Source: Eledone cirrhosa (taxonomy: Eukaryota). From it: a DNA stretch of 64,000 nucleotides. This document shows positions 6,481-61,384 of the stretch, in pieces. The notes beneath the pieces were generated by a model. The model saw only the letters and a list, made by a program, of their open reading frames with translations. It was not told where the DNA came from and made no database searches. Position numbers and translations under genes: made by a program. The stretch is from the NCBI GenBank assembly GCA_964016885.1, contig OZ024742.1, positions 115,940,001-116,004,000 on the forward strand, in the 5' to 3' direction. Positions within the stretch are counted from its first letter, which is position 1, and each line of letters begins with the position of its first letter.

Positions 6481-6525
6481 AATATTGAACTAGTTTCGTT
6501 GTTGTTACAACTCATCAGCAATATT
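6481..6525 (-). ncRNA. Minimal type I HHR, intact core (family C)
   Basis: aatattg-CTGATGA-gttgt aaca acaac-GAAAC TA GTT-caatatt; 7-bp helix I, 5-bp helix II. Confidence 0.92.
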
Positions 6526-7110
6526 TACCTATCTTCCGGCCTTTCTGGAGAATCGTAAAAGCACATATCGTTATATGCTTTTTCTATGAAAATTAGTAGT
6601 GGGCAGACTAATTTGCATAGAGTGTGAGTACGTATCGGTTCAACGGAGACGATAAAAACAAATAACGAAACGAAATTAAATTTCGTTTCGTTTGTAACTC
6701 ACTTTTGTATGACTGACGCTTAAACAATTAAGTTAAAAATGTACATCCACATATGTATACTGAAATACTAGTATGCATATGAATACACACACGTATACAT
6801 ATGTAGATGTACCAAGTTTTTCACTAGTCACTTTACTGTGAGTGTCCAGCTATTCATATGCATACTAGTATTTCAGTATACATATGTGGATGTACATTTT
6901 TAACTTAATTGTTTAAGCGTCAGTCATACAAAAGTGAGTTACAAACGAAACGAAATTTAATTTCGTTTCGTTATTTGTTTTTATCGTCTCCGTAGAACCG
7001 GTACGTACTCACACTCTATGCAAATGAGTCTGCCCACTACTAATTTTCATAGAAAAAGCATATAACGATATGTGCTTTTACGATTCTCCAGAAAGGCCGG
7101 AAGATAGGTA

Positions 7111-7155
7111 AGTATTGCTGATGAGTTGTAACAACAACGAAACTAGTTCAATATT
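7111..7155 (+). ncRNA. Minimal type I HHR, intact core (family C, inverted arm)
   Basis: agtattg-CTGATGA-gttgtaacaacaac-GAAACTAGTT-caatatt. Confidence 0.92.
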
Positions 7156-10930: not shown

Positions 10931-10999
10931 ATTTTATTATGCGCATTTCAAAAACAAATATCATCATGAGATGACATTTGCGTTTTCGTCAGATAAAAT
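10931..10999 (-). ncRNA. Type I HHR with palindromic GCGC loop III
   Basis: attttat-CTGACGA-long helix II-GAAAT GCGC ATA-ataaaat. Confidence 0.9.
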
Positions 11000-11127
11000 G
11001 GGGATACATGATATGAAGGTTAAAAAACACTTGTGAATAGTGAAGTTTTAAATCAACATATTTAAAACGTGTTGATTTAAAACTTCACTATTCACAAGTG
11101 TTTTTTAACCTTCATATCATGTATCCC

Positions 11128-11198
11128 TATTTTATCTGACGAAAACGCAAATGTCATCTCATGATGATATTTGTTTTTGAAATGCGCATAATAAAATA
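11128..11198 (+). ncRNA. Type I HHR with palindromic GCGC loop III
   Basis: tattttat-CTGACGA-aaacgcaaatgtcatc tcat gatgatatttgttttt-GAAAT GCGC ATA-ataaaata. Confidence 0.9.
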
Positions 11199-25534: not shown

Positions 25535-26223
25535 ATTTATTGACACGTGTTTCTATAACAGTTACATAACCTAAAACAGCTGCTATCTACAAACTTTTAG
25601 TTATGCAGACATTCAATATTTCAATGTTATTATTTACTGTCATTTCTTCAGAATAATATTACTGAGGACCTATTTAGTTTTTATAGAGAATATTAGGAGG
25701 GAGGGGTGAAGTTTTAGAAGAATAGTTGAAGGAGTGGTTTTTCGATAGCAGTGAGAATTCTTGGTGGCAGTGAGTAATTAGATTCCCATCTGTTGTTTTG
25801 ACATTTTTTATAGAATATATTATTGGTTATTTTTCTAAATCTATAGAAGGATTAGTGATAGTAAAGATATGCGTGGTTGGTTTTGTGTTTGCACTTAATT
25901 AACATTCAGACTTAAATTGTTCTTTCAAGTGTACGTATCCTTTCACCCACGCATTCACACAAAAATATATTTGCACACCTCTACAAAATACATATACTCA
26001 CAATTCACATATTCATACTTACATATATATACATATGCATACACATATATATACACACATGTATTCATGTACATACATACGCGCTCATGTGTATACATTT
26101 TCATACTCAACTTATCTTTATATACACACGTATAGACACACACACATATACATACATACTCTAGTCCATGTGTACACACATACACATACATACACATCTA
26201 TATACACATATATACATACATAT

Positions 26224-29680: not shown

Positions 29681-29793
29681 AAACACGCACACACACAACA
29701 AACATACATAACGGTACATACACACATACATCTATACAATTATATATATATAGATATTATTATTATGTAATAAACAACATAAGGCAATTATTC

Positions 29794-29847
29794 CATTTAC
29801 CAGTGGTTTCTTAAAAGCAAAAGGTTTTGCTTTCAATCCTCAGAATG
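29794..29847 (-). ncRNA. Type I HHR, intact core
   Basis: catt-CTGAGGA-ttgaaagcaaaa cc ttttgcttttaa-GAAACC ACT GGTA-aatg. Confidence 0.9.
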
Positions 29848-29863
29848 AAAAACCAGGATTTTT

Positions 29864-29918
29864 CATTCTGACGATTGAAAGCAAAACCTTTTTGCTTTTA
29901 AGAAACCACTGGTAAATG
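29864..29918 (+). ncRNA. Type I HHR, intact core
   Basis: catt-CTGACGA-ttgaaagcaaaa cct ttttgcttttaa-GAAACC ACT GGTA-aatg. Confidence 0.9.
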
Positions 29919-30034
29919 GAATAATTGCCTTATGTTGTTTATTACATAATAATAATAATTAAGCTCTGTTGCATACATAGAGCACTCTTTTTTCCTGCAC
30001 GTTTCCGATGGAATTACTTCATTCATACATATAT

Positions 30035-50369: not shown

Positions 50370-51020
50370 AAAGAATTTATTGACACGTGTTTCAATAACA
50401 GTTACATAACCTGAAAACAGCTGCTATCTACAAAGTATTAGTTATGCAGACATTCAATATTTCAATGTTATTATCAACTGTCATTTCATCAGAATAATTT
50501 TACTGAGGACCTGTTTGGTTTTATAGAGAATATTAGGAGGGAGGGGTGAAGTTGTTACAAGAAAAGTTGAGGGAGTGGTTGTTTGATAGCAGTGAGAATT
50601 TTTGGTGGCAGTGAGTAATTAGATTCCCATCTGTTGTTTTGATATTTTTTATAGAATATATTATTGGTTATTTTTCTAAATCTATAGAAGGATTAGAGAT
50701 AGTATAGATATGCATGGTTGGTTTTGTGTTTGCACTTAATTAACATTCAGACTTAAATTTTTCTTTCAAGTGTACGTATCCTTTCGCCCACGCATTCACA
50801 CACAAACATATATGCACAGCTCTACAAAATACATATACTCACATACACATACTTACATGCTCATAATTACATACATATACACATGCACATATATATATAT
50901 ATACATATATATACATATATACATGTACATACATACGCATTTATGTGTATATATTTTCATACTCAACTTATCTTTATATACACACGTATAGACACACATA
51001 TATACATACATACTCCAGTC

Positions 51021-55996: not shown

Positions 55997-56437
55997 CACA
56001 TGAAGGCGAACTAGCCAGTTTTAGAATTCCCTTTTTCGGACTATATTACTGTGAGAGCCCTGGTTTTCTGTTGAGCTCTGCTGATGAATGATATTCCAAC
56101 CGTGACCATCTCCACTGAAAGTGTTCATGAAATAGTATTTTAAGACTATACAGAGCATTTGATGTTATTCCAAATTGAAGGATAAGTGTTTCAAACTTTG
56201 TTTTATCATGAGTTAAAGGTCTATAGATTTTTCCATGGATTTTACTAAATTCTGTGGATGAATTTGTATCCTGATTCTCTTTTGAGATGAGTTTGAGTTA
56301 TTTTTCCTAAATCTTTCGTTAACTACTTTTCCCATCTTGACGTTATAGTCGCATATATGTTATAGAATGCCGTTAGCTTCTTGCTAAAACAATCTCTATA
56401 CGTCTCATTTATATATATATATATATATATATATTTT

Positions 56438-58399: not shown

Positions 58400-59662
58400 C
58401 TAGCAGTAAAGCCCGGCGTTGCTCGGGGTCGCTCAGTAGCTGTGTTAAAGTTACAATGTTAAGTTTCTTTTTTGGCTTAAAAACTGTAGTGTCTACTGTG
58501 CAGACTTGCATGTGGTGTTTTTGATTAATATTCCCTCAACCAACAATATGCCTTATGAAGTTAAGAAAACATAACGATAACCCGAATGTTATAACAAAAG
58601 AGGATGCTGGGGATAAAAACTGCACTGGTTATTTATTAACAAAGATCGAAAATGTAAACACTGCAACGCAGAGAAAAACATTAGCGTAACCAAATTATCA
58701 GTTATGTCTGTCTGCACGCCTATATCACCTCTCTGCACGACTGTCTGTCTGCACGCCTATATCACCTCTCTGCACGACTGTCTGTCTGCACGCCTATATC
58801 AACTCTCTGCACGACTGTCTGTCTGCACGCCTATATCACCTCTCTGCACGACTGTCTGTCTGCACGCCTATATCACCTCTCTGCACGACTATCTGTCTGC
58901 ACGCCTATATCACCTCTCTGCACGACTGTCTGTCTGCACGACTGTCTGTCTGCACGCCTAACGAAATTTACAGATACATATATTTTAAATAAACTTATAT
59001 AATTTTTGCTTTTTTTTACGAAATATTTGCTTGTTTTACGTAGTCTTTAAATAGACTTGTTTTCAAGTAAAAATATTGTTTTAAAAGGCTTTTAAATGGA
59101 AATGAAGCAAAACGGAAGCTTAGTGTTCGAACTGATGAATTTTGCAGGTCAAAATTTTGCTGGCTCGACAACTGTTCGTGTATTGTGTTAATGTCATTTT
59201 AAACGCTGAGAAAGCCAGCGTAATTTTTTTAATTTTTGCCAGCGTAATTTTTTTAATTTTTGCCAGCGTAATTTTTTTAATTTTTGCCAGCGTAATTTTT
59301 TTAATTTTTGCACGCAGAAAATGTAAACAGAACGTAAGACGCTACGCTGAATGTAAACAGAACAAAGGGAAATCATTTTTTTAATTTTTGCACGCAGAAA
59401 ATGTAAAGAGAACGTAAGACGCTACGCTGAATGTAAACAGAACAAAGGGAAATAACTCATCACTTACGCTCCATAATCGATACATTATATTCGATTTCGT
59501 CAGATAGGGCGGGTCAATTTGAAATATCTTTTTTCCGATGTCTTCGCTAGGGCTCAATGTACAAGTCTAGCAATTTCGGTGCAATTCCGTGAGAGATTCT
59601 AAGAGGAGATGTGTGCCAAAAATCGATAGACAGACAGACAACCTCAGTTTTATATATATAGA
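58400..59662 (-). mobile_element. Non-autonomous Helitron with internal minisatellites
   Basis: 5' A|TCTATATATATAAAA, 3' hairpin cccgagcaacgccggg then CTAG|T; 37-bp x ~7 (58705-58960), 23-bp x4 (59214-59310), ~78-bp x2. Confidence 0.85.
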
Positions 59663-59881
59663 TTACTATATATTATTAATCGGCTCAGTATTTTTATACT
59701 TGGAGCTTAATAGTTACAGGGTTCCAATTGAGTTTTGGAACCAACTCTAATTTTCATATATATTTCTGCTCCCTCGCAAGTTGAGCTTATTAAGTTGTGC
59801 GTGTTGGACTGTTATTTCTATTCAATACGCGGTTACCACGTGTGAACGTTGGCAAATAGTGTTTGTTGCATTTAATCAGAT

Positions 59882-59961
59882 TCTCTCGCTGATGATGCCC
59901 AGGATTATCTGTTACAAACACACTCAGGGAGAAACAGATTAGGGATAATCTGTCCGAGAGA
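59882..59961 (+). ncRNA. Full type I hammerhead ribozyme with stable helix III and GUC site
   Basis: tctctcg-CTGATGA-t(g)ccc...ggga-GAA ACAGATTA ggga TAATCTGT C-cgagaga. Confidence 0.9.
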
Positions 59962-60099
59962 TATAATGGTTATTGAGGCGGTTTGTATAATAATATATTT
60001 TTATTTTATCATTCTGTCTGCTTCTTGGTTAAATATTTCAAACAAATGTGGTTTTTCAACCCTTGTAATTTTAGACACACGGTTTACTGTGTTTCTTAC

Positions 60100-60154
<55 letters not shown>

Positions 60155-60198
60155 AACACATATATATATACATGCATACACACACCCATATATACATA

Positions 60199-60242
<44 letters not shown>

Positions 60243-60589
60243 AATACTTAGGTTAATAGGAGTTAGGTATTGTATACCCGTGTCGCATTAAGGTATTGGC
60301 AGCATAATAATTAGCTCTATGCTTTGGAGCAGAGCCGTATATATGAAAAAGAACACAAGATCGTCTGCTGTTGTAGACGCTCTTGTGTTCTTTTTCATAT
60401 ATATATATATGTATATGTACATACACACATTCGCTTACACATATACACACATATAAAAACAATAAAATAAATGTACAATGCATCCATACACATTCACGTA
60501 ACATATACATACATATACACACACACACACACATTACACATATATACATATATATATATATATAAGCGTATACATACATACACCCACAC

Positions 60590-60839: not shown

Positions 60840-61200
60840 TACACTCTTAGCCTGGGCTTCCCGGAGGATTCCATGCGGCCAATGTGCCCCTTCTCTGGTC
60901 TCTGAAGGTCATGATAATTTCAGATTTCAGGTTGACCGCGTCATCCTTCACTCCAACTAACTCCACGGCCTCTTATAGGCATAATCTGCACTTTCTACTT
61001 CCAGCCGAGTATGAATTTGCGTGCCGAAAGATACACAAGAGAAGGTCTTTCATGGCCCACATCAAGTCCGTTAACCTAGTGGAGTGCCTCTTGCTTCGAT
61101 CCTTGAAGAAGTTCGTGTGGTTATACATCCGCGATTTAAAGGTCATGGATGTTGCGCCGATGTGGGTGCGTTTTATATTTTGGGTGCTGACCACACATGT
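60840..61200 (-). mobile_element. PLE GIY-YIG fragment
   Basis: [38 protein letters not shown]. Confidence 0.75.
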
Positions 61201-61239
61201 GTATATATATATATATATATATAAATATGTATATGTATG

Positions 61240-61313
<74 letters not shown>

Positions 61314-61384
61314 TTTATTAAAATAACAGATTAAAGTTTAAGCAAAGATTTATTATTATTACTATATATACATATATATGTATG

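What the first reader, a model, noticed from the sequence alone, without database searches (positions are those of the whole stretch)
59882..59961. Solitary canonical hammerhead with 8-bp helix III and a possible built-in inhibitor strand
Seen: 7-bp helix I, CUGAUGA, 8-bp helix III capped by GGGA, GUC site at 59952-59954; it is the only HHR here with a long stable helix III and should work as a monomer. Its loop II contains ggattatctgtt, complementary to both helix III strands (aacagat; gataatct), allowing an alternative inactive fold. Helix II itself is weak. Inference: a conformational switch in an unclassified element at ~59670-60110.
Basis: partly seen in the sequence, partly recalled or inferred. 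Interest (0 to 1): 0.72.

Follow-up and report, generated by a model that had tools for sequence, protein, structure and literature searches.

The report
Pseudoknotted hammerhead in decayed retrozyme copy
This is one damaged copy of a predicted self-cutting RNA motif carried by a small non-coding repeat found about 900 times in this animal genome, and its long loop likely pairs with an upstream strand that braces the ribozyme, rather than blocking it in the way first proposed.

Summary
The type I hammerhead at 59882-59961 is real, but it is not solitary. It sits in a ~468-bp non-coding unit (59663-60109) whose helix II-III motif has 902 exact matches in the genome. Copies show tandem and inverted pieces, tails and (TA)n flanks, like a non-LTR retrozyme. 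The scan noted a 467/468-bp family of this kind before (e1-8803865). The weak helix II is a rare mutation of this copy (A at 59930; 30 of 32 other copies have C). The loop II/helix III complementarity exceeds chance, but it shows no compensatory change in 85 copies, is broken in a sister subfamily, and is predicted at about 1% once flanks are included. Loop II instead matches the 5' arm: 59873-77 with 59903-07 and 59859-66 with 59914-21. The proximal pairing recurs with different sequences in 6 of 10 hammerhead groups of this genome (decoy windows 0-2 of 10). Best reading: a retrozyme hammerhead braced by a stem I/loop II pseudoknot, a known activating contact. Zipping of the distal helix could be an off-state that protects circles, which is untested. 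No cleavage or expression data.

The parts
59663..60109 (+). One unit (plus a 14-nt terminal repeat) of the ~468-bp non-coding hammerhead repeat; solo copy between TA-rich flanks
   Evidence: BLAST ends at 59663 and 60109 and 468-bp spacing in tandem loci; same 14 nt at 59663-59676 and 60096-60109; GC 0.34
59839..59840 (+). Site of a 40-nt deletion relative to other copies, private to this copy
   Evidence: 40 gap columns against 31 of 32 copies; junction pattern found once in the genome
59859..59866 (+). Distal 5'-arm strand, complementary to loop II 59914-59921 (8 Watson-Crick pairs); a further 3 pairs 59868-59870 with 59910-59912
   Evidence: Predicted fold; unchanged between three subfamily majorities, 0/8 on each strand; pair counts
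59873..59877 (+). Proximal 5'-arm strand, complementary to loop II 59903-59907 (5 pairs): predicted stem I/loop II pseudoknot
   Evidence: Wobble-keeping changes in the family; same register in other groups; compensatory pair in another group
59882..59888 (+). Helix I, 5' strand (pairs with 59955-59961)
   Evidence: 96.9% of cells paired, 2 pairs with two-sided change
59889..59896 (+). Catalytic box CUGAUGA plus one extra nucleotide before helix II
   Evidence: extra base U, A, C or G among copies; three extra bases in subfamily B
59897..59900 (+). Helix II, 5' strand (pairs with 59927-59930)
59901..59926 (+). Loop II, 26 nt: pseudoknot strand 59903-59907, variable 2-nt spacer 59908-59909, strand 59910-59921
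59927..59930 (+). Helix II, 3' strand; A59930 replaces the family C11.1 and breaks the closing pair
   Evidence: predicted helix II probability 0.02 against 0.96 for an intact copy
59931..59954 (+). GAAA box, 8-bp helix III with GGGA loop, GUC triplet; predicted cut between 59954 and 59955
   Evidence: 98.1% paired; loop III varies in length and sequence while the stem is kept
59955..59961 (+). Helix I, 3' strand
60100..60246 (.). (TA)n microsatellite into which the 3' end of the unit runs
   Evidence: TA run on at least one side in 55 of 60 other loci

Best explanation
This is a decayed solo copy of a ~468-bp non-coding repeat whose type I hammerhead likely cuts tandem transcripts into unit-length RNAs, and whose long loop II likely docks on the 5' arm of stem I as a Watson-Crick pseudoknot that braces the active fold. 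Shown: the motif, the repeat family, its tandem, inverted, tailed and (TA)n-flanked insertions, the two loop II/5'-arm complementarities and their conservation, and this copy's C11.1-to-A change and 40-nt deletion. Inferred: (1) intact copies cleave after the GUC as monomers; (2) unit RNAs circularise and are reverse-transcribed by a Penelope-like element, as proposed for non-LTR retrozymes; (3) the 5-bp proximal helix holds stems I and II side by side, with the 8-bp distal helix adding to the dock; (4) this copy cleaves poorly because helix II has lost its closing pair. The loop II/helix III match is likely a by-product: loop II must complement a 5'-arm motif that also happens to occur in helix III.
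For: Family and insertion pattern; of 60 independent loci, 22 have an inverted piece, 44 have two or more same-strand pieces (tails included), 34 a 60-95-nt tail, 55 a TA run on at least one side; longest Met-ORF in a trimer 75 aa. Pseudoknot register: the cognate upstream window gives the best duplex with loop II in 6 of 10 hammerhead groups, against 0-2 of 10 for five decoy windows (binomial about 1.5e-4, my hand calculation). Sequences differ completely between groups. In the L157/L195 group one pair is C-G in 14 and U-A in 10 of 24 copies, none broken. The 5'-arm pairing uses no core or helix nucleotide, so it cannot block by occlusion (folds). Stem I/stem II pseudoknots are activating where tested (PMC3088659, passages).
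Against: No cleavage, probing or expression data; no RNA run was listed (see Tried and rejected). Within this family the core pseudoknot pairs show only one-sided changes; the two pairs with two-sided changes are marginal ones that are unpaired in 40 and 44 of 85. The proximal 5' strand can equally pair with the 3' flank for 4 of its positions (the fifth is broken in 22 of 85 there against 9 of 85 for the pseudoknot). Four of 10 groups do not rank first, and subfamily B ranks 3 of 9. The windows were chosen after looking at the sequences, several groups have 1-2 members, and the groups were drawn by eye. The whole loop II/5'-arm duplex (16-17 pairs over 19 nt) is much longer than the 4-6-bp pseudoknots described, and nested folding predicts it in place of helices I and II. 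No autonomous Penelope-like partner was found.
Confidence: 0.6

Rival explanations
1. Off-switch through the 5' arm: the proximal helix alone is compatible with cleavage, but when the distal helix zips up, the 19-nt duplex pulls helix II or helix I apart and holds the ribozyme off, which would delay cleavage and protect the circle from re-cutting.
For: Nested folding puts the 5'-arm hairpin at 0.71-1.00 in all 10 circular monomers where it was scored, with helix II at 0.23 or less in 11 of 12; it is the minimum-energy fold in 5 of the 6 copies folded. The hairpin is complete at 59921, before the 3' strands of helices II, III and I are transcribed (sequence order). Only 5 nt return from the duplex end to helix II in the young subfamily (8 and 10-11 in older ones), which is tight for a 19-nt duplex (my rough estimate). 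The distal match ranks first in 4 of 10 groups. PMC7229834 (part 4 of 6) states that what keeps metazoan retrozyme circles from cleaving is unknown. A precedent title on an attenuating tertiary structure in a satellite RNA hammerhead appears in a reference list; the paper was not held and its content is recalled.
Against: ViennaRNA cannot score pseudoknots, so its exclusion of helices I and II is forced by the model. All core and helix strands stay unpaired by this duplex. In 3 of 8 copies folded with flanks (L003, L031, L121) and in the one subfamily B circle the active helices are at 0.58 or more. In two other groups the distal partner competes with a hairpin inside loop II (by eye).
Confidence: 0.25
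2. One reading: loop II invades helix III and gives an inactive fold that regulates cleavage.
For: Complementarity above chance (duplex-energy shuffle p 0.005 for this family); 95.9% of cells paired; predicted 0.54 in the isolated UCCC-loop variant.
Against: No compensatory change; broken or weakened in subfamily B with helix III's 5' strand unchanged; about 0.01 with flanks and 0.003 or less in 11 of 12 circles; not shared by other groups (2 of 10); the loop II bases that are kept are explained by the 5'-arm pairing.
Confidence: 0.07
3. The complementarities are relics of local duplication and inversion in an AT-rich hairpin region and have no role; the hammerhead works without them.
For: The same short motif occurs four times within 85 nt; loop III occurs as GGGA and as its reverse complement UCCC in different subfamilies, which suggests local inversion; in-family covariation is weak.
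Against: Invariance of the distal strands against 69-84% flank identity, and the same register with unrelated sequences in other groups.
Confidence: 0.08

Closest known systems
Metazoan non-LTR retrozymes (Cervera and de la Pena 2020, PMC7229834: passages, parts 2 and 4 of 6, section 14 read, supplement not readable; preprint 10.64898/2026.07.22.740005: parts 1-3 of 5 read)
   Same: Non-coding, low-GC tandem unit of a few hundred bases with one type I hammerhead per unit, dispersed as monomers, dimers and short multimers, in a genome rich in Penelope-like elements.
   Different: Unit of ~468 bp is at the upper end of the 150-450 bp range first given (within the 51-972 bp of the preprint). The hammerhead has an 8-bp helix III, a 26-nt loop II and predicted Watson-Crick pairing to the 5' arm instead of the archetypal loop 1/loop 2 contacts. 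Circular RNA and cleavage are not shown here. The mussel hammerheads are said to lack the archetypal contacts; their figure is in the supplement I could not read and might show a similar pairing.
Penelope-like element pseudo-LTR hammerheads (PMC4209133: parts 1-2 of 4; PMC8557442: passages; PMC11167929: part 1 of 4)
   Same: Extra nucleotide between A9 and G10.1, conserved G10.1-C11.1, inverted 5'-truncated copies, tail at one end, bias for (TA)n.
   Different: No RT/GIY-YIG ORF belongs to the unit. Helix III is long and not palindromic, unlike metazoan minimal hammerheads and more like the fungal and protist ones described there. The tail is 60-95 nt rather than 30-40.
Hammerheads with a stem I/stem II pseudoknot (Perreault et al. 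2011, PMC3088659: passages; toad and termite HDV-like type III hammerheads, PMC7936874: section 9)
   Same: A short Watson-Crick helix between the 5' side of a stem I loop and the loop of stem II; reported for about 40% of hammerheads and needed for fast cleavage where tested.
   Different: Here type I, in an animal repeat, with a second predicted helix of 8-12 pairs further out, so that about 16-17 of 26 loop bases can pair. I found no description of this two-helix form in searches (listings and abstracts only for most hits). It is not the PK hammerhead of PMC11300833 (passages), in which a pseudoknot replaces helix II.

Membership tests
Type I hammerhead ribozyme | CUGANGA and GAAA boxes, NUH triplet, helices I-III in type I order | tested here: met
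   one extra base after A9, a described variant (PMC4209133)
Type I hammerhead ribozyme | G10.1-C11.1 pair closing helix II | tested here: not met
   Not met in this copy (A59930); met in 30 of 32 other aligned copies and 76 of 85 in the wider alignment
Type I hammerhead ribozyme | Site-specific self-cleavage | not testable with these tools
   No raw RNA reads were offered
Non-LTR retrozyme | Short non-coding tandem unit, GC below 50%, one type I hammerhead per unit | tested here: met
   Monomers of 424-479 nt, GC 0.33-0.37; longest Met-ORF 75 aa; arrays. This window copy is itself a monomer.
Non-LTR retrozyme | No LTR, PBS or PPT; dispersed copies | tested here: inconclusive
   Dispersal met; no LTR-flanked body seen in the loci; PBS and PPT were not searched
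Non-LTR retrozyme | Expressed as unit-length linear and circular RNA | not testable with these tools
   No RNA holder listed; only contigs of unknown kind were laid
Autonomous Penelope-like element | RT and GIY-YIG ORF between pseudo-LTRs | tested here: not met
   No ORF consistently attached to the unit in the family loci; nearby ORF remnants lie in either orientation or beyond TA runs
Non-autonomous Penelope-like derivative | Inverted truncated copies, terminal tail, microsatellite targets | tested here: met
   22, 34 and 55 of 60 loci
Non-autonomous Penelope-like derivative | Sequence homology to the pseudo-LTR of an autonomous element | tested here: inconclusive
   None found among fetched loci; a 5.4-kb periodic candidate was a segmental repeat without an ORF; the genome was not searched exhaustively
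Stem I/stem II pseudoknot hammerhead | Four or more pairs between loop II and the stem I arm, kept by covariation | tested here: met
   strong across groups, weak within this family
Stem I/stem II pseudoknot hammerhead | Pseudoknot needed for fast cleavage | not testable with these tools
   Needs kinetics

The most novel reading that the evidence does not exclude
Long-loop hammerheads of animal retrozymes carry a two-step dock on their own 5' arm: a short proximal helix switches the ribozyme on, and zipping of a second, distal helix locks it off in the finished circle. This would be the missing mechanism that keeps metazoan retrozyme circles from cutting themselves, hidden from ordinary folding programs because it is pseudoknotted.
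Probability: 0.22. Interest if true: 0.68.

Novelty: new variant of a known kind. Interest (0 to 1): 0.42.

Why it matters
The element class is known and this scan has met such a family before, so the copy itself is ordinary and probably impaired. What is of use is the architecture: thousands of long-loop hammerheads in this genome (pattern counts 530, 255, 653 and 1,146; the third has a control count of 44) appear to use Watson-Crick docking between loop II and the 5' arm. That predicts which flank a construct must include, offers natural variants for engineering, and gives a direct test of how metazoan retrozyme circles avoid self-cleavage, a question left open in PMC7229834.

Tried and rejected
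Rfam: no hammerhead hit at either threshold; the long loop II probably defeats the models (inference). Expression: no RNA holder listed; four runs of unknown kind from one study were laid as contigs and show only that the unit and its subfamily variants occur; one contig of X4 dominates there, which I do not count as evidence. Autonomous partner: tblastn of six Penelope-like ORF remnants against fetched loci and shared-flank comparison gave no ORF consistently linked to the unit; L027's ORF begins after a TA run; the 5.4-kb triplet on C17 has no ORF. A pattern for changed helix II returned 13 copies, with no compensatory change seen in them. Rows dropped: 16 of 103 extracted hammerheads lacked the 5' flank or core and 2 were duplicates, leaving 85 for alignment A1; L090 and L203 were dropped as chance pattern matches without helices I and III, and L158-type or truncated copies failing the helix filter or lacking their own 5' flank were left out; groups F5, F7, F10 and L099, dropped by that filter, were put back; one truncated copy (L103 minus) was left out of A3, and A3 was not counted. 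Only the first 100 of 530, 255, 902, 653 and 1,146 pattern matches were listed and at most 30 per search fetched, mostly from contig C1. The script stopped after six copies; older subfamilies were folded. A core-sequestering misfold (loop II with CUGAUGA) is the predicted fold of this copy in isolation but disappears with the family C11.1, so I treat it as a result of decay. The satellite-RNA papers on an attenuating pseudoknot were not held. Sequence look-up in earlier findings returned nothing.

Full report
1. Observation. It has the longest helix III of the 10 type I candidates in the window. Rfam does not detect it. The loop II match to both helix III strands is real and above chance (0.4% and 2% of 20,000 shuffles), though the two matches overlap and are not independent.

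2. It is one copy of a repeat. The stretch 59663-60109 has 109 BLAST pieces in the 3-Gb genome among 40 scored of 1,517 candidates. Exact patterns give 530 matches for the core-to-GAAA part and 902 for the helix II-III part, with reversed controls at 0. Units repeat at about 468 bp (monomers of 424-479 nt, GC 0.33-0.37). Of 60 independent loci, 22 carry an inverted piece, 34 a 60-95-nt tail, and 55 a TA run on at least one side; the longest Met-ORF in a trimer is 75 aa. These features match non-LTR retrozymes (PMC7229834; preprint 10.64898/2026.07.22.740005) and the insertion footprint of Penelope-like elements (PMC8557442, passages; PMC11167929, part 1). I found no autonomous partner. Earlier notes of this scan describe a 467/468-bp and a 470-bp family in this genome; I could not confirm by sequence that they are this family. 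The host is probably a cephalopod; that is a guess and no call establishes it.

3. This copy is decayed. At 59930, 30 of 32 other copies have C and 2 have G; none has A. Genome-wide, 17 copies of the young subfamily have a non-C base there, 3 of them A. With C, helix II is 4 bp closed by G10.1-C11.1 after one extra nucleotide, both features listed for Penelope hammerheads (PMC4209133). Predicted helix II probability is 0.96 for an intact copy and 0.02 for this one. A 40-nt deletion after 59839 is unique to this copy.

4. The proposed inhibitor fails its own test. Subfamilies whose flanks are 69-84% identical provide variation. In 85 aligned copies helix III is 98.1% paired while loop III changes freely. 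The 7-bp loop II/helix III match has no two-sided change; one pair is broken in 20 of 85 and the next is U-G in 26 of 85, with the helix III side unchanged. The 8-bp match loses its last two pairs in 40 and 43 of 85. Folding puts it at about 0.01 for this copy with flanks and at 0.003 or less in 11 of 12 circular monomers (0.12 in the other). One result goes the other way: the UCCC-loop variant L045 gives 0.54 in isolation and 0.12 with flanks.

5. Loop II matches the 5' arm. With 32 nt of upstream flank, loop II pairs with it: 59873-59877 with 59903-59907, and 59859-59866 with 59914-59921, plus three inner pairs (13.6 expected pairs for this copy). Within the family the support is conservation and one-sided change only, and four of the five proximal bases could pair with the 3' flank instead.

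6. The same pairing in other hammerheads of the genome. Three pattern searches for long-loop hammerheads with other helices gave 255, 653 and 1,146 matches (controls 0, 44, 3). Sorted by eye into 10 groups including this one, the window 18 to 7 bases before the core makes its best duplex with the start of its own loop II in 6 of 10 groups; five decoy windows score 1, 0, 2, 1 and 1 of 10; the distal pairing scores 4 of 10; the helix III inhibitor scores 2 of 10 (family-level detail). The paired sequences differ between groups, and in one group a pair alternates between C-G (14) and U-A (10) in 24 copies with none broken (the adjacent outer pair is broken in 15 of 24). Caveats: windows were set after inspection, three groups have one member and two have two, and only a part of each match list was fetched.

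7. Mechanism. Shown: motif, family, insertion pattern, complementarities, conservation, decay of this copy. Inferred: intact copies cut after the GUC; tandem transcripts give unit RNAs that circularise and are copied by a Penelope-like enzyme (model from PMC7229834); the proximal helix is the stem I/stem II contact. Such pseudoknots are reported for about 40% of hammerheads and are needed for fast cleavage where tested (PMC3088659, passages), and the same side of a stem I internal loop pairs with loop II in toad and termite type III hammerheads (PMC7936874). The duplex uses no core or helix base, which fits a brace better than a block. I put this at 0.6. The main rival (0.25) is that the full 19-nt duplex is an off-state: nested folding prefers it in all 10 circles where it was scored, it is complete first during transcription, and the 5-nt return strand is short; but the folding program cannot represent a pseudoknot, so that result cannot decide.

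8. Novelty and verdict. The class is known, and a short pseudoknot is a known contact. A type I retrozyme hammerhead with a 26-nt loop II able to form two helices on the 5' arm was not found described in searches; the supplement of PMC7229834, which shows the mussel hammerheads, could not be read and may bear on this. New variant of a known kind; interest 0.42. If the distal helix proves to be the lock that protects circles, about 0.68.

Noticed in passing
window 56075-56156 (+): A second long-loop type I hammerhead candidate (helix I 6 bp, II 4 bp, III 5 bp, AUA site) with, by eye, a 4-bp match between its upstream arm and the start of loop II at the same register.
   Followed up: partly
window 6481-7155, 10931-11198, 29791-29921, 25583-25656 and 50424-50497: Four pairs of related hammerheads with 2-3-bp helix III, three of them in inverted arrangement, in a window with several Penelope-like RT and GIY-YIG ORF remnants (identity of the ORFs recalled from motifs, not tested by a family scan).
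   Followed up: no
L104-L133, L070, L071 (subfamily B; 89 pattern matches): Sister subfamily, about 66% identical over the unit, with three extra bases between CUGACGA and helix II; an unusual core insertion whose effect on cleavage is unknown.
   Followed up: partly
L042, L045, L047, L048, L062, L064, L067, L069, L071 flanks: Older copies repeatedly abut the same ~200-bp repeat; in L071 a piece of it lies between two units. It looks SINE-like (recalled, not tested) and may have been part of an older composite unit.
   Followed up: no
L049, L051 and listed matches: The two bases flanking helix II change together from A and A to U and U in one subfamily, staying mismatched; this may reflect selection to keep helix II at 4 bp, or one lineage event.
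   Followed up: no
L035, L045, L049, L051 against the window copy: Loop III occurs as GGGA and as its reverse complement UCCC in different subfamilies, suggesting an inversion of the hairpin loop.
   Followed up: no
L074-L103, L157-L216: Other long-loop hammerhead families, with minimal palindromic helix III and a second hairpin inside loop II; some are tandem at about 481-485 bp.
   Followed up: partly
L134-L136 (G000:C17:7690000-7716000): A ~5.4-kb segment is present three times and carries a subfamily B hammerhead, without a Penelope ORF.
   Followed up: yes
window 58705-59650: A cluster of 37-, 24- and 80-bp tandem repeats directly upstream of the element, probably part of another repeat.
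   Followed up: no
window 60976-61314 (-): Remnant similar to the end of a Penelope-like ORF, 0.9 kb downstream on the opposite strand.
   Followed up: no
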